A stretch of 64,000 nucleotides of DNA from positions 3,528 through 67,527 of the IMG/VR virus record IMGVR_UViG_3300035199_000184, one strand, 5' to 3'. The translations under genes and the position numbers were made by a program. The notes below the pieces were generated by a model. It had not been told where the DNA came from, made no database searches, and worked only from the letters and a program-made list of their open reading frames with translations. Positions 1-63,524 of the stretch are shown piece after piece (the stretch's first letter is position 1; each line of letters opens with the position of its first letter). The DNA is from a virus.

Positions 1-104
1 TGCACGCCCACGATGATTACCGAGACTACAAGCCGACTGTCGGTCAGCGTATCGGTGCTGGGTTTGCAATGCTTGAAGATGACGAAACTCGTTACAGTCT
101 TTGA
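1..104 (+). CDS. 3' end of a small ORF truncated by the window edge (...AMLEDDETRYSL*)
   Basis: Open frame from position 3 to TGA at 102-104, followed by a purine-rich RBS for the next ORF. Confidence 0.45.
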   Translation, partial: HAHDDYRDYKPTVGQRIGAGFAMLEDDETRYSL

Positions 105-116
105 GAAAGGGGTATC

Positions 117-323
117 ATGACTGATCATGAACCACTGTTGCGTTTCCCACACTTACGCAAGTTCGCCCGCAAGGGTGGGGCTTGGTGCTTTCGCTTCGAG
201 GGCCGTGGATACGGTCCATACGATACGAAGGATGAGTGCTGGGAGGATTTCCGAGGCATGACGAAGTCCGCTAGGCGGGATCGTCAAGGCTATTCACCCA
301 CTATCGAAAGGGGGAAACAATAG
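117..323 (+). CDS. Small hypothetical early phage protein (68 aa)
   Basis: AAAGGGG RBS, ATG start, GYGPYDTKDEC motif of the GPYxT type seen in small phage proteins. Confidence 0.65.
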   Translation: MTDHEPLLRFPHLRKFARKGGAWCFRFEGRGYGPYDTKDECWEDFRGMTKSARRDRQGYSPTIERGKQ

Positions 324-435
324 ACCTAACCGAGTTCGTTTGCCCAGTCTGAGCTTGTGGCTCAGCCAACCCGTCCGGGTTTGTTCCCCCGGACGGGCTA
401 CTCAGCCACATACTTATGTGCTGAAGATTCACTAT

Positions 436-639
436 GCCTGGGTGGTGTAATGGCAACACACCGTTTACCTGTTGTTGCCTGATGAGAGTTCGGTAGACCC
501 GTACTCTCTGATGGCTTTGCTTTGCTTATTAGCGGTCTAACTAGCCGCGATGTAAGACCCGTTGAAGGATAGTTACCTTCAACGTTGGGAGGCCGACAGG
601 TATTTGGCGGAGTACAGGGTTCGATTCCCTCCCTGGGCA
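436..639 (+). ncRNA. tRNA-like RNA with the anticodon loop replaced by a ~140-nt structured insert (tmRNA-like architecture)
   Basis: Acceptor GCCTGGG 436-442 / CCTGGGC 632-638 plus A639; D arm GTGT-AATGGCA-ACAC 445-459; stem CCGTT 461-465 / GGCGG 606-610; T arm AGGG-TTCGATT-CCCT 616-630; helix extended by TACCTGTTG/CGACAGGTA and GCCT/AGGC. Confidence 0.8.
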
Positions 640-735
640 GCATACATTGTAGGCCGAAAGGCCGAACAACGAGGCGTCATATGTCCACGCCTACAACCCG
701 AACGGTTCGGGGGAGAATGTATGGGGCAAGTTATC

Positions 736-915
736 GCGGCGAATGCCGCAGAAAGAGGTGAGCATGAGTGATTCAGCACCGACGTTGGTCGCGCCATCAA
801 ACTGCGAGGCGTGTTACGTCGAACTCGACGGGAGGATTTACTACCTCGACAACTCTACCGGAGAGGTGATCGTGGATAGCTGGGAACGAGTAGCAGCGGC
901 GAATGCCGCAGAAAG
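736..915 (+). repeat. Two exact copies of GCGGCGAATGCCGCAGAAAG (736-755, 896-915), a hairpin followed by an RBS
   Basis: 20-nt direct repeat 160 nt apart, each copy 8-9 nt upstream of an ATG (764, 925). Confidence 0.85.
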
Positions 916-943
916 GAGTTACCAATGCACGGTAATTCATTGA
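764..943 (+). CDS. Small hypothetical protein
   Basis: GAGGTG RBS before ATG 764; MSDSAPTLVAPSNCEACYVELDG... Confidence 0.55.
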   Translation: MSDSAPTLVAPSNCEACYVELDGRIYYLDNSTGEVIVDSWERVAAANAAERSYQCTVIH

Positions 944-1152
944 TTCCGACTGCTTCCGAGCATGATCGGTACTGGGGGTATCCGCCTGAGGCACCCTCAG
1001 AGTACCAGGAGTCTTATGACTACTTGGTAGATCACCTGGACATCGAGAGTGATCGTGCCGAGCTCATTGCCGGTGACTACACCCGTTACGATGTCGAGAT
1101 GATGGTTGCTGGTGAGCTCGACGCTCTTATCAAGCGTGAGTACACCGACTGA
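925..1152 (+). CDS. Small acidic hypothetical protein (75 aa)
   Basis: AAGGAG RBS; D/E/Y-rich sequence. Confidence 0.7.
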   Translation: MHGNSLIPTASEHDRYWGYPPEAPSEYQESYDYLVDHLDIESDRAELIAGDYTRYDVEMMVAGELDALIKREYTD

Positions 1153-1229
1153 CGACCAGCACTTCGCCCACTCGTCGTGAGTGGTCGAGGATGTTAGCCG
1201 TTTGTTTCATTTACACAAGGAGATTGAGT

Positions 1230-1682
1230 ATGCATGTATCCGAAAGTGCGATGATTGATGCGTTCAAGCGTGACCGCGACAAGGTTGTGGACATGCTGAG
1301 GCAAGTGCTTCCAGGTTGCGGAAAATACAATCCGCCACTGCTGAAGCGTTTCGTCGTCGAACCACTCAAGCATGTGGATGAGTGCTTCATCGAGATCGAA
1401 GAGCATGGTCTGACCCTGCAAATCGATGAGATGGATATCAGCACCATTGCCGGCAAAAAGTACCATCCATGCTGGACGGTGCTTGAGACTCGCTGTACCC
1501 CCGGCGGTCACTGGGAACCTGACGACTACGATCTGTACGAGTTGTCGTCTCATCGCAGTTACCCCGAGGCGATTGCCAAGGTACTACTGGTCATTGCCGA
1601 GCGTGAGATTGATGGCGTAATGCAATCATACGCCGATGGTAAGCACGCTGAAGAGGTCGAGAGTTGGCCTGACGACAAGTAA
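1230..1682 (+). CDS. Hypothetical acidic protein (~150 aa)
   Basis: AAGGAG RBS before ATG 1230; PGGHWEPDDYD motif. Confidence 0.75.
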   Translation: MHVSESAMIDAFKRDRDKVVDMLRQVLPGCGKYNPPLLKRFVVEPLKHVDECFIEIEEHGLTLQIDEMDISTIAGKKYHPCWTVLETRCTPGGHWEPDDYDLYELSSHRSYPEAIAKVLLVIAEREIDGVMQSYADGKHAEEVESWPDDK

Positions 1683-1785
1683 CGATCCACTGAGGATACC
1701 CCAAATCTGGGGTATCCGATTGTCGACCGTTTGATACAATTGAGATTCTGAGCCGTTTTGTTTCTGTTTTGAGAGGAGTGATTCT

Positions 1786-1992
1786 ATGAGTGAGTCCCAA
1801 AGGGAAGTGATGATGTTTGCTGTGCGTGCAGCAATGGGCGAGCTTAGTGCGTCGGTGTGGGGATACGGTATGCCCCGCAATACCACTAAGCGGACCTTCC
1901 GTGACCTGTTTGAGGCGGCATCCACTGCCGGTCTCGACGTTGAAGAGTACCGTGAAGACTACAATCAGTTCGACCTTAGCAAGGGAGCGTGA
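1786..1992 (+). CDS. Small hypothetical protein
   Basis: GAGGAG RBS and ATG start. Confidence 0.7.
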   Translation: MSESQREVMMFAVRAAMGELSASVWGYGMPRNTTKRTFRDLFEAASTAGLDVEEYREDYNQFDLSKGA

Positions 1993-1994
1993 GC

Positions 1995-2156
1995 ATGAAA
2001 GAACCTAAAGTGCATGGTCTTGAGTACTTGACGATGGCACGCCTTAACGGGCGAGCAGTTGTCATGATCGGGGTTGCTAAGCATTTCGCCGTCGTCCGAT
2101 TCGTGGGCGAGACTAAGCGCTTCAGCGTCCTAGCAAACCTATTGGAGAATTTCTAA
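1995..2156 (+). CDS. Small hypothetical protein (53 aa, MKEPKVHGLEYL...), absent from the ORF track
   Basis: AAGGGAG upstream; TAATG overlap with the next ORF. Confidence 0.55.
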   Translation: MKEPKVHGLEYLTMARLNGRAVVMIGVAKHFAVVRFVGETKRFSVLANLLENF

Positions 2157-2353
2157 TGGGTGCTGGTTTGATGTACTCAGGCTTTACTTACTACCTTTTC
2201 GGTTTCCTGTCCCCGGTCTACTGGGGATGGGAGGCCGAAACCCTTATTGCAACTACCATGCTGGGAGTTGTAATGCATCTAATCGAGAGGAGACAAAAGA
2301 ATGAGATGCTCTATCTGCAAGAAGCCCTTGGTGTCGAAGCACGTCAACGCTGA
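2156..2353 (+). CDS. Small membrane protein with two hydrophobic segments
   Basis: TAATG coupling and hydrophobic stretches. Confidence 0.5.
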   Translation: MGAGLMYSGFTYYLFGFLSPVYWGWEAETLIATTMLGVVMHLIERRQKNEMLYLQEALGVEARQR

Positions 2354-2432
2354 TGTGATGCACGCCAAGTGCTTACACAAGAAGATGTCTGCCGTGCGTG
2401 CACGGGTGACCAAGTTCAGAAACAAGGAGTGA
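2301..2432 (+). CDS. Small basic Zn-finger-like protein (43 aa, MRCSICKKPL...HAKC)
   Basis: GAGGAG RBS; CxxC...HxxC. Confidence 0.55.
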   Translation: MRCSICKKPLVSKHVNADVMHAKCLHKKMSAVRARVTKFRNKE

Positions 2433-2499
2433 GTGGTCTCGGTCGTCTCCTGTGTACACAGGACAGTACGCCGAGGTAATGCATCCCACTGCCCTAGAA

Positions 2500-2535
2500 G
2501 CCCGTCGTCCCTTAATTGGGCCGGCGGGTTTTTTT
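2500..2535 (+). terminator. Intrinsic terminator ending the plus-strand arm
   Basis: GCCCGTCG-TCCC...GGG-CCGGCGGGT stem followed by a T tract, at the convergence of the two arms. Confidence 0.85.
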
Positions 2536-2545
2536 GTGCCCTGAT

Positions 2546-3298
2546 TTATACCAGGGTGCGGACGTGCTCGATCACTCCAGGCTGAATGCCTTTGTACTCG
2601 ACGCCCTCGGGGGGCATCCCTTCGAGTGCGGTCAGCAGTGCCGGCCAGTCAGTCTCGGCGTGATCCAGGTTGTACTGTCGGACAATGAATATGGCACAGT
2701 TAGCCTCGGGGAATCCCTTGGTAAGCTGTCGCTCGACCTGGACGTAGACCTCGGGGTCTGAGGGATTGAACCGGTACGTGTTCCTGTCCTTGTGGTATCG
2801 CAGCAGGTCCTGAGAGTACGCAACCCCCCAGTTGTAACGCACAAAGGGGCCTCCAGTCATCATCGAGTGGGTGAGTGCCGGCGGTAATGCCATGCCTGGG
2901 ACGTCTGCATGTGTGCCGGCAAACGATTCCCCGATCACTTCAGCGGGACTCCATCCACTCGGGAAGCAGAAGTGGAGCATGGCTAGCCAGTCCCGGTCCT
3001 CGGTGTAGCAGTGGATTGCGAAGTCCTCCTGCATTGCCATCGCTAGCTCATCCAGCGTAGCGTCGGCGGGCTCGTTGAGCTCCGCCGCGATCCATTCCCG
3101 CACGGTCTCACGGGCGAGCTCTGGCAGGAAGTGCTCCAGGTGAGGGTCGTGCGTGACGTTACGCTTGGCCTCGATGAATCGGTCGAAGTCCCGGTCCATC
3201 TGGAAGAACTGATCGTCCTGGTCGTGGCCGGTATGATGTGGGAACCTGTGCAGTCCAGGCTTCACGCTCCATCCATTACGGTAGGGGTGATACGTCAT
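2546..3298 (-). CDS. DUF3445 / heme-dependent oxidative N-demethylase alpha-subunit-like protein
   Basis: Motifs QEDF, CFPSGWSPxExIG, HxxVPG, RxNW and VERQxxxxFP; start at ATG 3298 overlapping the upstream TGA. Confidence 0.75.
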   Translation of the reverse strand: MTYHPYRNGWSVKPGLHRFPHHTGHDQDDQFFQMDRDFDRFIEAKRNVTHDPHLEHFLPELARETVREWIAAELNEPADATLDELAMAMQEDFAIHCYTEDRDWLAMLHFCFPSGWSPAEVIGESFAGTHADVPGMALPPALTHSMMTGGPFVRYNWGVAYSQDLLRYHKDRNTYRFNPSDPEVYVQVERQLTKGFPEANCAIFIVRQYNLDHAETDWPALLTALEGMPPEGVEYKGIQPGVIEHVRTLV

Positions 3299-3504
3299 TT
3301 CTCTCGAATCTTCCGTCGCATAGCCGTGTAAACTCGGTCGTGCTCTCTCCGTCTGCCTATGTGCCAGCAATTGCATGCTTCGCACAGGTACACGCTCATG
3401 CCTGACTTCGTCAGACCCCGAACTTGGCGTATCATCTTGGCTCTGGCGGCTACCGCCCCCTTTCGGGTGGAGTGCCGTGCTTTCTGGCAGTGACCGGTTC
3501 TCAT
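3295..3504 (-). CDS. Small basic Zn-ribbon phage protein
   Basis: C..K.R...VYLCEACNCWHIG pattern; ATGA coupling on both sides. Confidence 0.7.
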   Translation of the reverse strand: MRTGHCQKARHSTRKGAVAARAKMIRQVRGLTKSGMSVYLCEACNCWHIGRRREHDRVYTAMRRKIREK

Positions 3505-4025
3505 GACTGGGCCTCCTTGGCTCTCGCATCCGCGACGAACTTCTTGTGGAGTTTATGACCGGCTATCATGTCCACACCATGCTTGAGGCCGTCTCCGTGA
3601 TGGGCGATGCGGCTCAGGTAGGCATTCCGCTTACGCTTGGTGTCGAACTTCTCAGGGTCACCCAAAATCATGGAATGGGCTCCGGTGAGGCTCTCGAATA
3701 TCTCAGCGTCGATGCACAACATCAGCAGGACGTCGGCGGATCGATGGCGGAAAGCAACCATGGCTAGCTCTGAGGTAGACTGATTCCATAGCCTACCCTT
3801 CTCTTTCCAGGTGACTCGCCGCGACATCGAGTTGATCTTGTCAGTGTCGGTGAAGCACAAGAAATCGAACCCAGCCGAGGTCTCAGTGGCCCCAGCGGGA
3901 TCGAACAGCCAGCTACCCGTGGGCACTATCACCAGCAAGTCACCAACGCCGGAGTTCATGGCCTTCTTTTCGTGGGCGTTCATCTCTTTCCATATTCGCT
4001 TTGGCACTCCAGTGGGGCGGTTCAT
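3501..4025 (-). CDS. Hypothetical protein, possible degenerate nucleotidyltransferase fold (TGSWLF)
   Basis: ATGA coupling; TGS motif without clear DxD. Confidence 0.55.
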   Translation of the reverse strand: MNRPTGVPKRIWKEMNAHEKKAMNSGVGDLLVIVPTGSWLFDPAGATETSAGFDFLCFTDTDKINSMSRRVTWKEKGRLWNQSTSELAMVAFRHRSADVLLMLCIDAEIFESLTGAHSMILGDPEKFDTKRKRNAYLSRIAHHGDGLKHGVDMIAGHKLHKKFVADARAKEAQS

Positions 4026-4594
4026 TCGTCACCTCCGTCCAGGTCGAAAAGGTCGTCAAAGAATTTCTGCTTCTTGGCGGGGTCATCCCACTCGCTCGGC
4101 AGACTGAACCCGTCGTCTCCAGACTCCTTGAACCCGTCGAAGTCGTCCTTGAGGATTTTCTTTAGTGCCTCGGGGTCGAACAGGAATCCTATCTTAGAGT
4201 CCACGCCGGCCCCATGCTCCTTCATCTTCTCAATGGCCTTCTCGATACCAATGTCGTCCACTTCGATTCCGAGGTGATCCTTTAGGATGGTCTGTGTGGT
4301 TGAGTTGATGGCGTCGCCCACGGCCTGCATGATCTTGGCGTAGATATCGACAACGTACTCCTCGCCTTGACCGGCACTCCAGGCTAGCCCAGCGACTGCA
4401 CCAGCGGCAGCCTCGGCCATGCCAAGGGCGACGGCTATACCGCCAACCGCACCGAATCGTCCTATCTCTTTTTCTGTGTGCGGTATCATGGTCCTTTCCA
4501 AACTGGAACGAACGTGCTCCTGAACCTTACCGAGTTCGTCCCCGGTATGGTCCATTGTTTCCTTGGGTGTTGGTTTTGGGATTCTGTTCTTCAT
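4022..4594 (-). CDS. Hypothetical protein (190 aa)
   Basis: GGAG RBS and translational coupling. Confidence 0.7.
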   Translation of the reverse strand: MKNRIPKPTPKETMDHTGDELGKVQEHVRSSLERTMIPHTEKEIGRFGAVGGIAVALGMAEAAAGAVAGLAWSAGQGEEYVVDIYAKIMQAVGDAINSTTQTILKDHLGIEVDDIGIEKAIEKMKEHGAGVDSKIGFLFDPEALKKILKDDFDGFKESGDDGFSLPSEWDDPAKKQKFFDDLFDLDGGDE

Positions 4595-4614
4595 TTTGGT
4601 CTCCAGGTTTGGGT

Positions 4615-6132
4615 TTACACTTTCAGTACGTCAGCCACAGCATCGCTCTCAACGCTCAAATTCGTTATGTGGTGGACTTTGTTGCTGACTGCGTTCAATG
4701 AGTCACGGTAGCCGTTCTCGCCTCGGTAGCCGTAGCCATGATCCTTCTGGCTGAGCACCAGCGTGGTCATCTTGACCTCTTTGGCAGCCTTCCAGGTATT
4801 GAACTCGGCCTCAACTTCGGTGGGCACCTTGATGTAGGCGTCGGTGATCAAGATAATGTCGGTCTTGCCGGCAGGGCACCCGAGGGAATCCCATCTAGCC
4901 GGTAGTTCCTTCAGGGGCACGTCGCAGGTAGTGCCACCGCCGTAGAAGTGGTCCAACCAGTCAAGCAGGTCGTCGGGCTTGTTTGCATCGGGCGGGATGG
5001 CAAGGTACGTACCCTCACGACCGCCGCTGAACCCGACTAAGCACACGTAACGCTTGGTGCTCTTGGCTATCCAATACAACGCCAGGGCCAAGGCCTTAGC
5101 GTTTGCTATCGGGTCGCCGTACATGCTGCCAGACTCATCGCACACAACTACGATTGGCCCCTTGCCCTCCTCTTCGTATCCAATGTGCTCACGGGCAAAG
5201 GCCTGGGATTCGCTAATACGACGCAAGCACTCCAGTTCCAGCAGGTCATCCTCACCCAGGAACGCGATCTCTTGCGGCAGAACCTGGGAGATGTCTCCCG
5301 TGCGGGTCACCCCCACGACGTCCTCGCACCCATCGGGTGTCTTGGTACGCTGCTGGGATGCGGCAAGGTTCTGGTATCGACCGGCGAGCCGGCAGATTTC
5401 GGACAATTGCTTGCTGTTCTTGATCTTCTTGTAGATACGCTCAACCTCTTTGATGCCGAGCCGGGAAGTGTCGCCACTGCCCATGCCCCCGAGCGTACGC
5501 TGGGCATCTTTAAGGTCTTGAATGTCCTCTTTAGCGTTGTCCAGGGCCTTTTTAGCCTCTTGGCCGAAGCCTCCCTCAGGCCCAGGTTCCCCCGGCTCTT
5601 CGCCGTGCTTATCTTGGATGGCAGCCCACTGCTCGCTGATCCGCACGGTCGCCAGTGACGACGAATACTCATCCAGGGCGGTATCATTCCGCAATTGCTG
5701 GAACTCCTCGGTCTCCATCAGATCACGCATGTACTGCTCACGCTTGGCGTCGTGCGGGTTCTCAGCGAACTCGGTATTGAGCCCGAACAGAGACTCGAAG
5801 AAGTCAGCGGTCGCAAGCTCGGACTGACGACGTCGTTCCTTGTCCTCATCGGTCTTGAGGGACTGGCACCCGTACATTTCCTGTAGTACCGGCGTGTCGT
5901 CGAGAATCTCGATGCCCCGATTCTTGGACCACAGGTCGTGCCTCAGTACGGTGTCTGAGTACACAACAGGGGTCTCGCCGTCGACCGTGGGGCCGAATTC
6001 GAGGTCATCGGACTTGGTGTCCTGAGCCTCGACCTTGCCGAGGAACCCCAGGTCAGACTTGCCCAGGGGGTTGAGTGACCGATCTAGCTGCGAGGCTAGG
6101 CCAGTCAGTTTTTCAGTTAGGTTCTCGCTCAT
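4615..6132 (-). CDS. VWA (MIDAS) domain protein, ViaA-like
   Basis: GPIVVVCDESGSM (DxSxS), GGGTT, ILITDA; adjacent to a MoxR-type AAA+ gene. Confidence 0.9.
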   Translation of the reverse strand: MSENLTEKLTGLASQLDRSLNPLGKSDLGFLGKVEAQDTKSDDLEFGPTVDGETPVVYSDTVLRHDLWSKNRGIEILDDTPVLQEMYGCQSLKTDEDKERRRQSELATADFFESLFGLNTEFAENPHDAKREQYMRDLMETEEFQQLRNDTALDEYSSSLATVRISEQWAAIQDKHGEEPGEPGPEGGFGQEAKKALDNAKEDIQDLKDAQRTLGGMGSGDTSRLGIKEVERIYKKIKNSKQLSEICRLAGRYQNLAASQQRTKTPDGCEDVVGVTRTGDISQVLPQEIAFLGEDDLLELECLRRISESQAFAREHIGYEEEGKGPIVVVCDESGSMYGDPIANAKALALALYWIAKSTKRYVCLVGFSGGREGTYLAIPPDANKPDDLLDWLDHFYGGGTTCDVPLKELPARWDSLGCPAGKTDIILITDAYIKVPTEVEAEFNTWKAAKEVKMTTLVLSQKDHGYGYRGENGYRDSLNAVSNKVHHITNLSVESDAVADVLKV

Positions 6133-6267
6133 TTCTTTTCTCCGGGGTTAGGATTAAAAGGCCCGCTGGGGCTCGTGTTAGGAGCCCCCGACAGTGGTCT
6201 CATCAATCACTGTCGTTGCGGGGCATTACCATGTTAGTACTACGCATCTGGTGTCTCGGGTGTTCGA

Positions 6268-6327
6268 AAAAACCCAGGGGGGACTGAACGATCTCGGCGA
6301 CCGATCAGGGAGACCTCCCCCCTGGGC
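6268..6327 (-). terminator. Large hairpin with T tract between the AAA+ and VWA genes
   Basis: CCCAGGGGGGA...TCCCCCCTGGG stem followed by TTTTTT on the minus strand. Confidence 0.7.
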
Positions 6328-6333
6328 TGTTGG

Positions 6334-7458
6334 TTAGAATACAAATTCGAGGCTCTCGGCCAGGATGGTCTTGATCCTGCACATCTCGGACTCGATGTTC
6401 TCCGAGATGCGAGAGGCCTTGCTGGTCTGCTTCAGCTTCCCGACCTGCTTGTACACCTTCTTGAGGCGTACCCCGGTGTCAGTCAGGGACTTCACGTTAG
6501 TCATGTCGGCCTCCTCCACGATGCTCTCGGCCTCCATCTTGAGGGTATTCAGCTTGAGAGCCTCGGGGTTAGCGATCTTGGTGACGATGTCCCTGGTCAC
6601 ATTGTGCTGGTCCGGGTCATTCCACATGGTGTGCTCCAGAACGCTCAGGTGCTCGGGCTCTACTGTCTTCGAGCCGGCCAGCCAAGCAGTGGCGTTGATG
6701 GCGGCAGTGGACTGGCGGATACGCCGGCAGCCCGTCATGACACCATTGCGGCGGAGCTCTTTCACGATAGCGTGATAAGAGTGCTCACACTCGGAGCTCG
6801 GCTTGAGTGCCTGAGCCTCGGCGGACGCCTTGTCGATCTCATCCCCACTGATCTTGAATCCGAGATCGGGGGTGAGGTCTTCCGGGGACGCCCACATCAA
6901 GCGGTGAAGTCCAGCGGACGTCGCAACCGGCTTAACGTGCTTGCGGATCAACCAGCGGTCAGCAAAGGCGTCGAGCCCCTGATCCGCCTTGGGGAATTCG
7001 TTAGACGTACCGATCATCGTCTTGACCGGGGTCTGACGAATCTCGTTCCCGTCCTCGAACGTGCCCTCATTGGTGATAGTCAAAAGCGAATTGAGTATGG
7101 CCGAGGAGCCCTTGAAGACTTCGTTGATGACCACAATCTCTGCCTCGGGCAGCTTGTTCGCGGTCAGGCGACGGTACTCGCCTTCTTTGTAGCCACGTAG
7201 GTCCAGGATACCGAACAGTTCATCAGGCATCGAGTACTTGGTGAGGGTACGCTTGAAGATTTTGGCGTCGATGACGTCAGCCCATAGCTCCGCTAGGAGT
7301 GTCTTGGCTGTACCGGGAGCTCCCAGCATAAGGAAGTTGTCGCCGATGATCGCTGCGGTCAGCAGCAGGTCAACTTCGTCCTCACGCTCGATGAGAGCGA
7401 CCTTGAACGCTTCGGCTGCCTGAGAGAACTTGTCGAACGCTGTCATTTTCTTGCTCAT
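6334..7458 (-). CDS. MoxR/RavA-family AAA+ ATPase
   Basis: Walker A GAPGTAKT, PDELFG, NEVFKGSSAILNSLL (Walker B reads NE), SNEFP, AFADRW. Confidence 0.9.
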   Translation of the reverse strand: MSKKMTAFDKFSQAAEAFKVALIEREDEVDLLLTAAIIGDNFLMLGAPGTAKTLLAELWADVIDAKIFKRTLTKYSMPDELFGILDLRGYKEGEYRRLTANKLPEAEIVVINEVFKGSSAILNSLLTITNEGTFEDGNEIRQTPVKTMIGTSNEFPKADQGLDAFADRWLIRKHVKPVATSAGLHRLMWASPEDLTPDLGFKISGDEIDKASAEAQALKPSSECEHSYHAIVKELRRNGVMTGCRRIRQSTAAINATAWLAGSKTVEPEHLSVLEHTMWNDPDQHNVTRDIVTKIANPEALKLNTLKMEAESIVEEADMTNVKSLTDTGVRLKKVYKQVGKLKQTSKASRISENIESEMCRIKTILAESLEFVF

Positions 7459-7483
7459 ATTGGTCTCCGAATGAGTAAGTGGG

Positions 7484-7726
7484 TTACTTGGAATACATGG
7501 TCTTGAGTGCTTCGACGACCAGGGACGAGCCGATGATCGCACAGAACACGAACGCTTCGGCTTTCTCCCTGTCACTGTCGATGAATTTCTTGGCGACGTC
7601 CTGCACGTTGCCGTTATCGTACTCACTGAATGCGTCGCCCATGTTCATTGCCAGTCCTAGTGCAGCATGGGGTCCGATCTTCTCGATCAAATCACTTGCC
7701 AGATGCGTCGGGCTCAGATTTTCCAT
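7484..7726 (-). CDS. Small hypothetical protein
   Basis: AAGGA RBS; overlaps the upstream stop. Confidence 0.55.
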   Translation of the reverse strand: MENLSPTHLASDLIEKIGPHAALGLAMNMGDAFSEYDNGNVQDVAKKFIDSDREKAEAFVFCAIIGSSLVVEALKTMYSK

Positions 7727-8648
7727 TTTTCTTTTCCTTTGCTTCGGTCAGGGTTGTCAGTTGACGCTGGAACCTGCGGTTGATTTCGGTCGCCCGCATA
7801 CGAAAGTCGACACGGCAGGAGTCCAGGTAGCTGTCGTAGGCCTCTAGCTTGAGAACCACGGCCTCAACTTCGCTGACCTTCTTGGCAACTGTGCCTTTGC
7901 GGGTCAAAGAGCCCTCCTCGGGGTCCATGTTGAAGGCCTGTGTAGCCTTCTCCAGGTCCGACAGGAGTTGGTCCATGCCGATTCGGAGCACGTTACTCAG
8001 AGCTTGCTTGCCCCTCTCGGTGCCCACTCGGATGGGGAACCGTGACAGAGCACAGGGGTCGCCAGTGACGTCAGTCATCCAACGCTCCAGTTTGTCGGCA
8101 AAGGCGTGGAACTCTGACGGGCAGAAGTAGGCAACGCCCTTGTTCTTATTGATCGGCCACAGGTCCGCATTGTCCCTGCACAACTTCTTGACCATCCTGG
8201 TGATGTCACCGGAGTTACGTCGGGTCTGCTCTTCGGCCATGTACCGCTCGATGTCGATGGCGAGTCTTTCCTGCCCTAAGGTCACTGGGGTAACGGTCCC
8301 GGTCTTGACGTCCAGTTCGACTACCGCCTCAAAGACGTGATTGATCATAGCGTCGGTCTTGCTCTCGTAGGTGAACTGGTGGCGGACCAAGGTGCCGTCC
8401 CTGGATACCCGCTCGACGATCTTGTCCAGACCCTTCACCATCCTGTTGGTGGCACGGGTGAACGCACTCTTGTGCTGAAGGTCTTGGATCATGTCGGCAT
8501 CCAGGCCGGCGGCAGTTGCTGCGTCCCGCAGTAGCGAAACCTTTACGATCTTACTGGGAATGTCCCAGGTTAGGATATCGCCCGCGAGCTCTTTGTCGTC
8601 CACCTTCGGGGTGGACTTCGGGTTGTGTGAAGTTGTGAGTGTGGTCAT
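7692..8648 (-). CDS. DUF6744-like protein
   Basis: GDILTW, GVAYFCP and coiled-coil C-terminus; position upstream of the AAA/VWA pair. Confidence 0.6.
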   Translation of the reverse strand: MTTLTTSHNPKSTPKVDDKELAGDILTWDIPSKIVKVSLLRDAATAAGLDADMIQDLQHKSAFTRATNRMVKGLDKIVERVSRDGTLVRHQFTYESKTDAMINHVFEAVVELDVKTGTVTPVTLGQERLAIDIERYMAEEQTRRNSGDITRMVKKLCRDNADLWPINKNKGVAYFCPSEFHAFADKLERWMTDVTGDPCALSRFPIRVGTERGKQALSNVLRIGMDQLLSDLEKATQAFNMDPEEGSLTRKGTVAKKVSEVEAVVLKLEAYDSYLDSCRVDFRMRATEINRRFQRQLTTLTEAKEKKNGKSEPDASGK

Positions 8649-9300
8649 GTGTGGTCTCCATTGCGAATATGTCTTGTTCATGGTTAGTCTCGATCAGGTG
8701 AGCATATCTGTTCGTGGTAAGGATTGTTCTGTGCCCGACTGCTCGGGCTACTTCAACTAGTGTCTTACCAGCGTATAGGCAGTTGCTCACATACGAATGT
8801 CTCCCGCTGTGTAGCGTCGTTTGTCTTCCCCGGTCCTCTCCGAGGCACTGTATCAGTGATTTCCATCGTTGACTGAGGGTGCTCTCCTTAAGTCGACCGC
8901 CGACTTTGGCACCAAGTTTGGCTGCATGTGATACGCAACATACGAGAGGTTGGTTCGAATCTTTATCAGAAAAGTAAGAACTTTTTCTGAACTCCATCCA
9001 GGCAGCTAAATCGTCCAGCGTTCCCCGGTCCCAGTACAGCGGTACGTAGCGACCGTGTGCCTCACCCCGAGACGCTTTGGTAGCCTCAGGGCGTACCCGG
9101 ATTACTGGTCGTGCACCTGTTAGCAGCACGTCACGAATCTCCAAGAGGCTAATCTCTTTGCGTCGGAGCCCGCAGCATGCCGCTAGGCGGAAGAGGGTAA
9201 GGTTGAGCCTGCCGGCTGGGTGTCGAGACTTAGACCGCAGCATGGTCACTACGGTGCGTATCTCGTCAGGTTGCAGGATTTCAGATGGATCGAAACTCAC
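8551..9300 (-). CDS. Tyrosine recombinase, catalytic domain only
   Basis: GLRRKEI (R), TK, HSGRH (HxxR), VGH and RY catalytic residues; no N-terminal arm or core-binding domain. Confidence 0.9.
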   Translation of the reverse strand: MSFDPSEILQPDEIRTVVTMLRSKSRHPAGRLNLTLFRLAACCGLRRKEISLLEIRDVLLTGARPVIRVRPEATKASRGEAHGRYVPLYWDRGTLDDLAAWMEFRKSSYFSDKDSNQPLVCCVSHAAKLGAKVGGRLKESTLSQRWKSLIQCLGEDRGRQTTLHSGRHSYVSNCLYAGKTLVEVARAVGHRTILTTNRYAHLIETNHEQDIFAMETTHDHTHNFTQPEVHPEGGRQRARGRYPNLGHSQ

Positions 9301-63397: not shown

Positions 63398-63524
63398 TGC
63401 AATGGAATGCAACAGAATGCAATGGAATGCAACAGAGACGTTTACATGTAACTACACATGTAATGACAAACTAACCGACAAACTAACCGACAAACTAACC
63501 GACAAACTAACCGACAAACGTCTC
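63398..63524. repeat. Iteron-like tandem repeats (putative origin or terminus region)
   Basis: 20-mer TGCAATGGAATGCAACAGAR x2 (63398-63437); 12-mer GACAAACTAACC x4.6 (63465-63519); flanking inverted repeat GAGACGTTT/AAACGTCTC. Confidence 0.85.

What the first reader, a model, noticed from the sequence alone, without database searches (positions are those of the whole stretch)
436..639. tRNA body carrying an mRNA-like domain instead of an anticodon: a non-alanine mini tmRNA-like RNA
Seen: a complete tRNA frame with a 7-bp acceptor (436-442/632-638), A73, U8, a paired D arm with GG in the loop, a short variable loop AGTA and a TTCGATT T loop. The anticodon stem does not close a 7-nt loop. It extends as a long bulged helix (TACCTGTTG/CGACAGGTA, GCCT/AGGC) enclosing three hairpins (484-508, 532-548, 560-584). 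A mini-ORF, ATG GCT TTG CTT TGC TTA TTA GCG GTC TAA (511-540, MALLCLLAV*), starts just after the first hairpin, and its stop lies in the loop of the second. TAGACC 494-499 and AGACC 555-559 can each pair with GGTCT(A) 534-539, allowing a pseudoknot or switch. Known: tmRNA has a tRNA-like domain, a long helix 2, and a tag ORF ending in hydrophobic residues (-LAA type) with its stop in the H5 loop; it is usually much longer, lacks a D stem and carries G3:U70. This RNA keeps the D stem and has C3-G70, and CCA is not encoded (GCA follows A73). Inference: a ribosome-rescue or tagging RNA built on a different tRNA scaffold, or an anticodon-less tRNA decoy against anticodon nucleases or tRNA-sensing defences.
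Basis: partly seen in the sequence, partly recalled or inferred. Interest (0 to 1): 0.9.

Follow-up and report, generated by a model that had tools for sequence, protein, structure and literature searches.

The report
tRNA-shaped phage RNA plus partner RNA
A marine phage encodes an RNA that keeps the top half of a tRNA but carries a folded 137-base domain where the anticodon loop should be, and it is fused to a conserved cross-shaped RNA found in many uncultured phages and some tiny-genome bacteria; it is not a small tmRNA.

Summary
Window 436-639 has a 7-bp acceptor stem, a D arm, a T arm and A73. A 5-bp anticodon-stem analogue runs on into an 18-bp bulged helix carrying three hairpins.

The mini-tmRNA reading is not supported:
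- tmRNA models fail and 3:70 is C-G.
- A D stem and an anticodon stem occupy SmpB's place.
- The ORF has no counterpart in relatives.

It is also not a convincing intron. No cut restores a U33/R37 loop, and ARAGORN's 'tRNA-SeC' call is of a kind made on 216 of 290 insert-shuffled controls.

New findings:
- The loops of hairpins 2 and 3 are complementary over 6 nt, which suggests a kissing contact.
- One base after A73 begins an 83-nt four-way-junction RNA (641-723) with strong covariation and no Rfam match.
- Its core pattern occurs in 91 IMG/VR stretches and 37 GTDB genome stretches.
- In 62 of 77 viral matches it abuts a tRNA-like 3' end. In 20 of 24 bacterial-genome matches, mostly Patescibacteria, it stands alone.

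Best reading: a non-decoding, tRNA-scaffolded RNA in a two-part phage RNA unit. Its function is unknown. Earlier notes of this scan reported similar anticodon-less phage tRNA-like RNAs on other DNA.

The parts
436..639 (+). tRNA-scaffold RNA: a tRNA top half with a 137-nt structured domain (466-602) in place of the anticodon loop
   Evidence: Sequence. ARAGORN -i finds the frame. Folds. Same register before the 4WJ RNA as in 62 of 77 viral matches.
436..442 (+). Acceptor stem, 5' strand. Pairs with 632-638. A639 is the discriminator.
   Evidence: C3-G70, U4-G69, G5-U68. No G3:U70.
445..459 (+). D arm: GTGT / AATGGCA / ACAC
   Evidence: The same D-arm letters occur in a phage tRNA-Gln-like gene, L008.
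461..465 (+). Anticodon-stem analogue CCGTT, pairs with GGCGG 606-610. It closes no 7-nt loop.
   Evidence: None of the 8 possible 7-nt splice loops has both U33 and R37.
466..480 (+). 5' strands of the long bulged helix: 466-474 pairs with 594-602, and 477-480 pairs with 590-593
   Evidence: MFE and centroid folds
484..508 (+). Hairpin 1, apical loop UAGAC
511..540 (+). Mini-ORF MALLCLLAV*. Present in the sequence but not supported as coding.
   Evidence: No SD upstream. No counterpart in relatives.
532..548 (+). Hairpin 2: 5-bp stem with 7-nt loop CUAACUA (537-543)
560..584 (+). Hairpin 3: 9-bp stem with 7-nt loop AUAGUUA (569-575). Bases 570-575 are complementary to 538-543, a candidate kissing contact.
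   Evidence: A 6-nt match was reached by 78 of 100,000 random-composition loop pairs and by 776 of 100,000 composition-preserving shuffles. An X7 contig carries A581G, which keeps the pair as U563-G581.
615..631 (+). T arm: CAGGG / TTCGATT / CCCTC
640..640 (+). Single spacer G between the discriminator and P1 of the downstream RNA
   Evidence: In 60 of the 66 matches with an abutting T arm there is exactly one nt, usually G, after N73.
641..723 (+). Conserved four-way-junction (4WJ) RNA. Layout: P1 641-648/716-723; GUA; Ha 652-663 (GAAA loop); GAACAACG; Hb 672-692; ACAA; Hc 697-711; GGAG.
   Evidence: Model R1 scores 79.3 bits, E 3e-20, and this is the only hit in the window. Covariation. Not in Rfam 15.

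Best explanation
Window 436-639 is a non-decoding tRNA-scaffold RNA. It is the first half of a two-part phage RNA unit (436-723). The second half is a conserved 83-nt four-way-junction (4WJ) RNA that starts one base after the discriminator.

The retained tRNA top half (acceptor, T and D arms) is the part read by tRNA-maturation enzymes: RNase P, the 3' trimming enzymes and the CCA-adding enzyme. I infer that it sets the 5' end at G436 and the 3' end at A639. The same 3' cut would free or define the 5' end of the 4WJ RNA, and the scaffold would give the cargo tRNA-like stability.

The anticodon arm is replaced by 5+9+4 bp of bulged helix. This helix carries three hairpins, two of which can lock together by a 6-bp loop-loop contact. 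The RNA therefore cannot read codons. The insert is a folded cargo domain, most likely a binding surface for a host or phage factor early in infection.

Shown: the frame, the fold, the absence of any restorable anticodon loop, the family context, and the reality of the 4WJ RNA.
Inferred: processing, accumulation and the cargo's function. The cargo's target is unknown.
For: 1. The tRNA frame and the insert anatomy are confirmed. The insert has z = -5.4.
2. No cut restores a 7-nt loop with U33 and R37.
3. The loops of hairpins 2 and 3 are complementary over 6 nt. This was reached by 78 of 100,000 random loop pairs.
4. The 4WJ RNA is real. On 94 distinct sequences, 95.6% of cells are paired against 70.0% in shuffles. 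The covariation score is 0.621 against 0.161, reached by 0 of 500 shuffles. All 15 pairs of P1, Ha and Hc show changes on both sides.
5. The coupling recurs. 62 of 77 viral 4WJ matches have a T arm and acceptor 3' strand abutting P1. In 60 of the 66 abutting cases exactly one nt follows N73.
6. The upstream RNAs are tRNA bodies with inserts. Rfam's tRNA model spans L129 (46.3 bits, 76 nt inserted) and L131 (43.4 bits, 78 nt inserted).
7. In one subfamily of 13 sequences, the anticodon-stem analogue and two insert hairpins covary while their loops stay constant. Inserts there are therefore selected structures, not decaying filler.
8. In L124-L127 a TTGACA / TATAAT-like pair precedes the unit, and in L124, L127 and L129 a new one follows it. 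I read these by eye. This fits a self-contained RNA transcription unit.
9. An X7 contig from another study covers 534-672. Its A581G change keeps the pair as G-U, and its T603C change and T551 deletion lie in unpaired stretches.
Against: - No RNA data exist, so no transcript, end or CCA addition is shown.
- The window's own insert has no homologue in anything fetched. Its structure therefore rests on thermodynamics, one loop-loop match and four variant positions, not on covariation.
- Rfam's tRNA model does not reach E<=10 on the window's copy. The T stem has a C-C mismatch and the acceptor stem has two G-U pairs.
- No promoter was found directly upstream in the window.
- 15 of 77 viral 4WJ matches lack an abutting tRNA-like 3' end. 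In L184, L189 and twice in L145 the 4WJ instead follows a tRNA 5'-half-like stretch. In L171 ARAGORN calls an ordinary tRNA-Lys shortly upstream. The scaffold-with-insert is therefore not obligatory for the 4WJ RNA.
- The cargo's function is a guess.
Confidence: 0.55

Rival explanations
1. Mini tmRNA-like tagging or rescue RNA. The RNA is charged, enters stalled ribosomes, and the ribosome resumes on the internal ORF (…ALLCLLAV*), tagging proteins for a protease such as the phage ClpP.
For: - It has a tRNA-like acceptor/T domain and A73, a long helix, and an ORF whose stop lies in a hairpin loop.
- GCU follows the AUG.
- UAG/UAA-rich loops recur in the inserts of relatives.
Against: - ARAGORN tmRNA mode finds nothing and Rfam gives no tmRNA hit at E<=10 over 380-700.
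- 3:70 is C-G. G3:U70 occurs in 1 of 58 unique family frames, and N73 is not conserved (T 28, A 25, C 4, G 1).
- A 4-bp D stem and an anticodon-stem analogue occupy the position that SmpB takes in tmRNA. That role of SmpB is established knowledge, recalled.
- The ORF has no homologue. ATG ORFs of 6 or more codons occur in only 16 of 58 inserts and are unrelated.
- The UAG/UAA loops are better explained as palindromes: ACUAGU, UCUAGA, GCUAGC, CCUAGG and ACAUGU keep self-complementarity rather than a frame.
- The phage has no SmpB.
Confidence: 0.03
2. Intron-containing tRNA. The insert is removed, by an unknown or RNase-plus-ligase route as proposed for Lak megaphage 'enigmatic introns', to give a working tRNA. 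One candidate product is the opal-reading tRNA(UCA) with a long variable arm that ARAGORN draws.
For: - ARAGORN -i calls tRNA-SeC(tca) with a 111-nt intron and a canonical loop CUUCAAC.
- Relative L125 can be drawn as tRNA-Pro(UGG) with a perfect 5-bp stem and a 60-nt insert.
- Phage tRNA introns are in print (PMC6784885, passages read).
Against: - With the strong stem 461-465/606-610 no cut gives U33 and R37.
- ARAGORN's model needs a stem of 2 G-C, 2 G-U and a U-U mismatch. It also unzips the perfect 9-bp hairpin 560-584.
- ARAGORN -i makes such calls on 216 of 290 insert-shuffled frames.
- Close relatives get different anticodons: Val, Lys, Ala and Ile within one subfamily.
- There is no Rfam group I intron hit and the insert is only 137 nt.
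- The phage has no RtcB or RNA ligase.
- The 4485-aa ORF is open under table 11, so TGA is not generally read through.
Confidence: 0.07
3. Anticodon-less decoy or sponge. The tRNA top half titrates a host tRNA-binding factor, such as a defence nuclease, a tRNA-sensing system, a modification enzyme or RNase P, while offering no cleavable anticodon loop.
For: - It lies among small early-type ORFs on the + strand.
- It retains exactly the tRNA parts that proteins read.
- Inserts are very diverse between phages, as expected under conflict.
- Phage tRNAs that evade anticodon nucleases are in print (PMC10264068 and PMC11555353, search listing only).
Against: - Known anticodon nucleases read the anticodon loop, which is missing here.
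- A decoy needs no elaborate, conserved cargo and no fixed coupling to a 4WJ RNA.
- The 4WJ RNA also lives free in Patescibacteria genomes, where no phage defence logic is evident.
Confidence: 0.15
4. Disabled tRNA gene kept only as a processing handle, or plain debris. A small mobile or recombined DNA segment with inverted ends (TACCTGTTG…CGACAGGTA) landed in the anticodon loop of a tRNA-Gln-like gene. Only the downstream 4WJ RNA matters.
For: - The insert has no homologue anywhere searched.
- Its ends are a 9-bp inverted repeat.
- The D arm matches phage tRNA-Gln-like genes.
- The 4WJ RNA also follows tRNA 5' halves, is preceded by an ordinary tRNA-Lys call in L171, or stands alone.
Against: - There is no second copy of the insert in the genome and no target duplication that restores a loop.
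- The insert is far more structured than shuffles and has a 6-nt loop-loop match.
- The variant contig changes only pair-preserving or unpaired positions.
- In other subfamilies the inserts are under purifying and compensatory selection.
Confidence: 0.15

Closest known systems
tmRNA (SsrA; Rfam RF00023)
   Same: It has a tRNA-like acceptor/T domain, a long helix leaving the tRNA-like part, and internal hairpins. In this one copy a short ORF has its stop in a hairpin loop.
   Different: - It has no G3:U70.
- It keeps a D stem and an anticodon-stem analogue.
- At 204 nt it has no pseudoknot series.
- Its ORF is not conserved.
- It is not found by ARAGORN or Rfam tmRNA models.
- It is followed by a 4WJ RNA instead of ending at CCA.
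Bacteriophage T4 stable RNAs C and D (species 1 and 2 RNA; rnaC, rnaD)
   Same: These are phage-encoded stable RNAs of unknown function at the end of a tRNA cluster (annotation seen). rnaC carries a canonical T arm and a large structured body. That they are matured with the tRNAs is recalled, not tested.
   Different: - BLAST found no sequence similarity; T4 locus L252 was in the database.
- By eye I saw no 4WJ core pattern in the T4 stretch read.
- T4 rnaC does not show a clean D arm / anticodon-stem frame.
'Enigmatic' tRNA introns of Lak megaphages (Devoto et al. 2019, PMC6784885; passages read)
   Same: Phage tRNA genes are interrupted in the anticodon region by conserved inserts with no known splicing mechanism. 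My side find L008, a tRNA nested in a tRNA, is of that type.
   Different: In Lak phages a normal tRNA is restored by removing the insert. Here no canonical loop can be restored, and the insert is not tRNA-shaped. Their Supplementary Table 6 could not be seen.
HDV-like theta ribozymes downstream of phage tRNAs (Kienbeck et al. 2024, PMC10879173; search listing and abstract start only)
   Same: A conserved structured RNA is placed directly 3' of phage tRNAs, which suggests a role in tRNA 3'-end formation.
   Different: - The element here is a four-way junction closed by its own 5' and 3' ends, not a nested double pseudoknot.
- No Rfam HDV-type model matches.
- It also stands alone behind a promoter in Patescibacteria, where there is no leader to cleave.
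- Self-cleavage is untested.
Bacterial Y RNA YrlA, a tRNA mimic bound by Ro60/Rsr (recalled: Chen et al. 2014; Wang et al. 2018)
   Same: It is a non-coding RNA that mimics the tRNA elbow and acceptor while the anticodon side is replaced by a long helix.
   Different: - YrlA is circularly permuted relative to this RNA: its ends lie in the long helix and its acceptor end is closed by a loop.
- It needs Ro. The phage has no TROVE domain.
- The phage's 505-aa vWA protein resembles CoxE/ViaA-type MoxR partners.
Engineered 'tRNA scaffold' for expressing structured RNAs (recalled: Ponchon and Dardel 2007)
   Same: The design is the same. The cargo RNA is grafted onto the anticodon stem of a tRNA so that tRNA enzymes process and stabilise it.
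   Different: That is a laboratory device. Here the design appears to be natural, and it is coupled to a second conserved RNA.

Membership tests
tmRNA | Recognised by tmRNA covariance or heuristic models | tested here: not met
   ARAGORN tRNA+tmRNA on the window: 0 genes. ARAGORN -m on 380-700: nothing. Rfam at gathering score: none. Rfam at E<=10 over 380-700: none. Over 600-800 only a 13-nt T-loop piece, 7.2 bits.
tmRNA | G3:U70 alanine identity pair | tested here: not met
   C438-G636. Family-wide, G:U at 3:70 in 1 of 58 unique frames.
tmRNA | tRNA-like domain without a D stem and without an anticodon stem, leaving room for SmpB | tested here: not met
   A 4-bp D stem 445-448/456-459 and a 5-bp stem 461-465/606-610 are present.
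tmRNA | Conserved tag reading frame ending in a hydrophobic tail | tested here: not met
   The ORF exists in this copy only. The insert has no homologue. 16 of 58 inserts have any ATG ORF of 6 or more codons, and these are unrelated.
tmRNA | Pseudoknot (PK1) just upstream of the resume codon | tested here: inconclusive
   UAGAC(C) 494-499 can pair with 534-540, but that competes with hairpin 2. No comparative data exist.
tmRNA | Aminoacylation and SmpB-dependent trans-translation | not testable with these tools
   The phage encodes no SmpB. The host is unknown.
canonical or intron-containing tRNA | Acceptor, D and T arms with conserved U8, G18G19 and a T-loop | tested here: met
canonical or intron-containing tRNA | A 5-bp anticodon stem closing a 7-nt loop with U33 and R37, directly or after removal of one insert | tested here: not met
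   All 8 splits of a 7-nt loop fail. ARAGORN's alternative uses a weak stem and breaks a 9-bp hairpin. Control: 216 of 290 insert-shuffled frames also get a call.
canonical or intron-containing tRNA | Score of the Rfam tRNA model | tested here: not met
   No hit at E<=10 on the window copy. Relatives L129 and L131 do reach 46.3 and 43.4 bits with 76-78 nt inserted.
group I intron in a tRNA | Group I catalytic core | tested here: not met
   No Rfam match. The insert is 137 nt. That the smallest known group I introns are about 200 nt is recalled.
tRNA-like RNA + 4WJ RNA unit (uncatalogued; defined here) | 4WJ RNA matching model R1 | tested here: met
   Window 641-723, 79.3 bits, E 3.3e-20, full length
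tRNA-like RNA + 4WJ RNA unit (uncatalogued; defined here) | T arm and acceptor 3' strand abutting P1, with N73 plus one nt between | tested here: met
   A639, G640, P1 from 641. The same holds in 62 of 77 viral matches.
tRNA-like RNA + 4WJ RNA unit (uncatalogued; defined here) | tRNA frame with a long insert between the D arm and the variable loop | tested here: met
   137 nt here. 58 unique frames of 100 nt or more were found by my script upstream of the element.
HDV-like (theta) ribozyme | Nested double-pseudoknot fold or an HDV-type model match | tested here: not met
   No Rfam match. The covarying P1 joins the element's two ends, which by eye does not fit the HDV strand order.
Y RNA / YrlA | Ro60 (TROVE) partner and Ro-binding stem formed by the RNA ends | tested here: not met
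   No TROVE in the genome. The RNA ends lie in the acceptor stem.

The most novel reading that the evidence does not exclude
The tRNA-scaffold RNA and the four-way-junction RNA form a previously undescribed two-RNA system of uncultured phages. The 4WJ RNA has a near-invariant core in the set collected (part of it fixed by the search pattern), covarying stems, a GNRA loop, and a single free-standing copy in some Patescibacteria. It would be a new functional RNA class: a ribozyme, or a ligand of a universal machine such as RNase P, the ribosome or tRNA enzymes, acting on or with tRNA-shaped RNAs. The tRNA scaffolds would present swappable cargo domains that pair with each other through kissing or palindromic loops, as higher-order RNA assemblies.
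Probability: 0.2. Interest if true: 0.85.

Novelty: new variant of a known kind. Interest (0 to 1): 0.6.

Why it matters
tRNA-shaped RNAs that cannot decode have been known since the T4 'species 1 and 2' RNAs and are still unexplained. This locus shows that such an RNA is one half of a recurrent unit. The other half is a strongly covarying, sequence-conserved four-way-junction RNA with these properties:
- It is absent from Rfam 15.
- It was not found by BLAST in the INPHARED phage records tried.
- Its core pattern is present in at least 91 IMG/VR stretches.
- Very deep contigs in the four marine runs laid match the stretch 635-702.
- It is also a single-copy free-standing gene in some Patescibacteria.

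This gives two concrete new RNA classes to test, with defined ends, mutations and partners. It also suggests that phages use the tRNA body as a natural expression scaffold for structured RNAs. Finally, it removes a tempting but wrong reading (a mini tmRNA), and it shows that intron-tolerant tRNA finders will mislabel these genes as odd tRNAs, here as 'tRNA-SeC'.

Tried and rejected
- Relatives of the phage. DNA search of 1-6000 against INPHARED found no match. TerL by tblastn hit 136 records, all under 60% identity, with about 29% the highest among the 25 rows listed. The search for related loci with ORF 1191-1682 and with TerL found none. The search for homologous proteins with ORF 1191-1682 found only itself.
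- Pattern scans for the RNA itself. D arm + T loop found 0. The junction 20-mer in metagenome contigs gave 3 hits, all chance matches inside coding sequence. An exact 19-mer of the downstream hairpin found 0.
- RNA evidence. No RNA holder was listed among the 17 runs, so expression, ends and splicing could not be examined. In one search most of 403-536 had next to no cover in the four runs laid. This says nothing either way.
- INPHARED blastn with three versions of the unit. Two gave no match and one gave only T-arm-sized matches.
- Ro/Y-RNA idea. The 505-aa neighbour is a vWA/CoxE-type MoxR partner, not Ro. There is no TROVE domain.
- Protein partner of the 4WJ RNA. GP88 and DUF932 genes lie upstream in 4 loci but are absent from this genome. 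In 12 Patescibacteria-type loci the neighbours are unrelated housekeeping genes. No consistent downstream gene was found, so a riboswitch is unlikely.
- Antisense targets of the insert in the phage genome. One 13-mer was found, which is about chance level by my estimate.
- MITE idea. The insert has no other copy in the genome.
- HDV, hatchet, twister-sister, hammerhead and yybP-ykoY likenesses of the 4WJ RNA. These were considered from memory only. No Rfam model matches. The CUGAUGAG at 479-486 has no matching GAAA.
- Literature. Five searches and passages of three papers gave no description of the 4WJ core or of this unit. The letter strings searched hit only unrelated primer lists. Those of PMC6784885, PMC10879173 and PMC10690425 might list such motifs.
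- Prevalence in Patescibacteria. 3 of 121 sampled genomes matched R1 at E<=0.001 under the stricter filters. This is 'not found in those searched', not absence.
- My own slips. One search was a script error, fixed. One search used wrong coordinates and gave a useless alignment (A2). The MAFFT alignments A1 and A3 were out of register at the 3' end and were not used for counts.
Full report
**What is there.** The window is bases 3528-67527 of a 67,527-base IMG/VR virus record rated 100% complete. It comes from marine samples, since every run that holds it is a marine or seawater metagenome. The phage has a 4485-aa ORF, a TerL, a MoxR ATPase with a vWA partner, and an integrase-family ORF. It has no close cultured relative: the highest TerL identity among the rows listed is about 29%. 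The finding lies in a run of small + strand ORFs near the left end of the genome.

**The observation.** All stated pairs, loops and the mini-ORF are in the sequence at the stated coordinates. ARAGORN in its default and tmRNA modes finds nothing. Rfam finds nothing at gathering score, and no tRNA or tmRNA hit at E<=10 over 380-700. With introns allowed, ARAGORN recognises the acceptor, D and T arms, and this is the only tRNA-like call in the genome. The whole RNA folds at -77.8 kcal/mol (z = -2.9). The part 461-613 folds at -60.1 kcal/mol (z = -5.4, 0 of 200 shuffles as good). The fold is a 5-bp anticodon-stem analogue, a 3-nt bulge, a 9-bp helix, a 2-nt bulge, a 4-bp helix and three hairpins.

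**Not an ordinary interrupted tRNA.** With the stem 461-465/606-610, none of the eight ways of composing a 7-nt loop from the insert's ends gives U33 and a purine at 37. ARAGORN's drawing, tRNA-SeC(tca) with a 111-nt intron, uses a stem with two G-U pairs and a U-U mismatch. It takes its 'anticodon loop' from one strand of the perfect 9-bp hairpin 560-584. As a control I shuffled only the inserts of 58 unique family frames, five times each. ARAGORN -i still called a tRNA in 216 of 290. On the real sequences it of 58, but close relatives receive different anticodons. No Rfam intron model matches. The phage has no RtcB or RNA ligase.

**Not a tmRNA.**
- 3:70 is C-G.
- The D stem and the anticodon-stem analogue are present.
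- No tmRNA model matches.
- The ORF has no SD.
- The insert has no homologue in anything fetched.
- Among 58 unique relatives, G3:U70 occurs once and N73 varies (T 28, A 25, C 4, G 1). Only 16 have any ATG ORF of 6 or more codons in the insert, and these share nothing.
- The phage has no SmpB.

The 7-nt loops of hairpin 2 (CUAACUA, 537-543) and hairpin 3 (AUAGUUA, 569-575) are complementary over six bases, 538-543 with 570-575. A match that long arose in 78 of 100,000 random-composition loop pairs. It arose in 776 of 100,000 shuffles that keep each loop's composition.

**How the family was found.** Laying contigs of four other marine runs on 1-4000 gave two leads.
- One 151-nt contig of run X7 (depth 10.4) covers 534-672 with four other letters and one gap. 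A581G turns U563-A581 into U-G. T603C lies in the 3-nt bulge. The deleted T551 lies in a linker.
- Very deep contigs (depth 115-349, 832-880 nt) in three runs match only 635-681. Others match up to 702.

That stretch, just 3' of the discriminator, led to a conserved element. Patterns from it found 4, then 6, then 91 IMG/VR stretches and 37 GTDB genome stretches.

**The downstream element is a real RNA.** It is closed by an 8-bp P1 (window 641-648/716-723). Its layout is: GUA; hairpin Ha, usually with a GAAA loop; GAACAACG; hairpin Hb (AGGCGU…ACGCCU); ACAA; a variable hairpin Hc; (A/G)GAG. I built a covariance model from six sequences (A4, R1). It found 101 matches in 100 sources, and exactly one in the window, at 79.3 bits.

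On the model-made alignment of 94 distinct rows:
- 95.6% of cells pair, against 70.0% in shuffles.
- The covariation score is 0.621 against 0.161, reached by 0 of 500 shuffles.
- Sliding the partners by 1-3 columns drops pairing to 33-46%.
- All 15 pairs of P1, Ha and Hc change on both sides.

Two caveats apply. Hb and the two junction strings are invariant because the search pattern fixed them. The alignment was also fitted to the model. GUAG and GAG-A were not part of the pattern and are still at least 90% conserved. No Rfam 15 family matches it in the window, in ten phage or bacterial loci, or in three further genomes at E<=5.

**Coupling to tRNA-like RNAs.**
- Of the 77 viral matches, 62 have a 5-bp T stem, a T-loop and a 7-nt acceptor strand ending just before P1.
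- Of the 66 matches with an abutting T arm (62 viral, 4 in genomes), 60 have exactly one nt after N73, mostly G.
- The RNAs upstream are not called by default ARAGORN, but they are tRNA bodies with inserts. Rfam's tRNA model spans L129 and L131 with 76-78 extra bases at the anticodon loop. My script found full frames of 100 nt or more in 58 unique sequences.
- In a 13-member subfamily the acceptor, D, anticodon-stem analogue, two insert hairpins and T stems all covary. A 14-nt loop (UAUACUAGUUAAGC) and a 7-nt loop (YUGAUCA) stay constant.
- Six-base palindromes recur in insert loops: ACUAGU, UCUAGA, GCUAGC, CCUAGG, ACAUGU, UGAUCA and UGUACA. By MFE loops, 19 of 58 have a 6-mer palindrome and 2 more have an 8-mer. 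This points to loop-loop pairing between molecules. In the window's copy the two complementary loops sit in one molecule.

**Exceptions.**
- 15 of 77 viral matches lack an abutting tRNA 3' end.
- In L184, L189 and twice in L145 the element follows a tRNA 5'-half-like stretch, that is, it sits where the anticodon loop would be.
- In L171 ARAGORN calls an ordinary tRNA-Lys shortly upstream of the element.
- In 20 of 24 matches in GTDB genomes, nearly all titled Patescibacteria-type MAGs, the element stands alone. It begins a few bases after a TTGACA/TATAAT-like pair and is followed by a hairpin and a U run.
- It is single-copy in 5 of 5 such genomes, but it was found in only 3 of 121 sampled genomes of that phylum.
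- It has no conserved protein neighbour.

**Mechanism proposed.** The tRNA top half is what RNase P, the 3' trimming enzymes and the CCA-adding enzyme read; this is established knowledge. Keeping it while replacing the anticodon arm is the design of the laboratory 'tRNA scaffold', which I recall. I therefore read 436-639 as a natural tRNA-scaffold RNA. Its maturation would also define the 5' end of the 4WJ RNA one base downstream. Its cargo is a compact three-hairpin domain. The steps shown and the steps inferred are separated under Best explanation. What the cargo and the 4WJ RNA bind or do is not known.

**Comparison with known systems and novelty.** The closest described things are:
- T4 rnaC and rnaD (annotation; no sequence likeness).
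- Lak megaphage tRNA introns.
- Theta ribozymes behind phage tRNAs (listing only).
- YrlA.

None of these fits as a family. Earlier notes of this scan had already reported anticodon-less tRNA-like phage RNAs on other genomes. The new points here are the fixed link to the 4WJ RNA, the breadth of that RNA's distribution, and the kissing or palindromic-loop theme.

**Verdict.** The tmRNA reading is rejected and the intron reading is unlikely. The RNA is a new variant of the poorly understood tRNA-like phage RNAs, with a newly recognised conserved partner RNA.

Noticed in passing
L008:5140-5316 (IMGVR_UViG_3300025411_001034): A tRNA-Gln-like gene (U1-A72, G73, encoded CCA) is interrupted after its anticodon loop TTTTGGA by about 110 nt. 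The interruption contains a complete second tRNA-Gln(UUG). This is a nested tRNA like the Lak megaphage 'enigmatic introns'.
   Followed up: partly
window 735-757 and 896-918: A direct repeat (small hairpin plus an RBS-like stretch) stands in front of two successive small ORFs. One contig of run X4 joins 735 to 896, skipping 160 nt, so a deletion variant between the repeats exists in nature.
   Followed up: no
window 4615-7626 (-): A MoxR-type AAA ATPase (PF20030 bpMoxR) lies next to a 505-aa vWA/CoxE-like protein. This is a phage-borne MoxR-vWA pair with no link to the RNA.
   Followed up: partly
window 8551-9300 (-): This ORF has a Phage_integrase family match (E 2e-12), so the phage may be temperate. 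No att site was sought.
   Followed up: no
L156:5423-5638 (-): Downstream of that phage's 4WJ RNA, Rfam reports a 126-nt tRNA match and a 64-nt tmRNA match (59 bits) listed as spanning model positions 1-374. Further non-canonical tRNA-like RNAs therefore sit in the same array.
   Followed up: no
L145:3226-3467 (-), L184:5419-5499 (-), L189:8047-8121 (+): Here the 4WJ RNA follows a tRNA 5'-half-like stretch (acceptor strand, D arm, anticodon-stem strand) instead of a complete tRNA-like RNA. L145 has two such units in tandem.
   Followed up: partly
L132, L135, L150, L166: A GP88 (PF17338) gene lies upstream of the tRNA-like + 4WJ unit in all four loci, whose contigs are 17-56 kb. A DUF932 gene also lies upstream in three of them (L132, L135, L166). 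Both families are absent from this genome.
   Followed up: partly
window 371-397: A strong GC-rich hairpin (CCCGTCCGGG…CCCGGACGGG) without a U run lies 40 nt upstream of the RNA. Its role (terminator, processing site or promoter element) was not examined.
   Followed up: no
window 63398-63524: Tandem 10-nt and 12-nt repeats (the latter GACAAACTAACC, about 5 copies) lie near the right end of the record.
   Followed up: no
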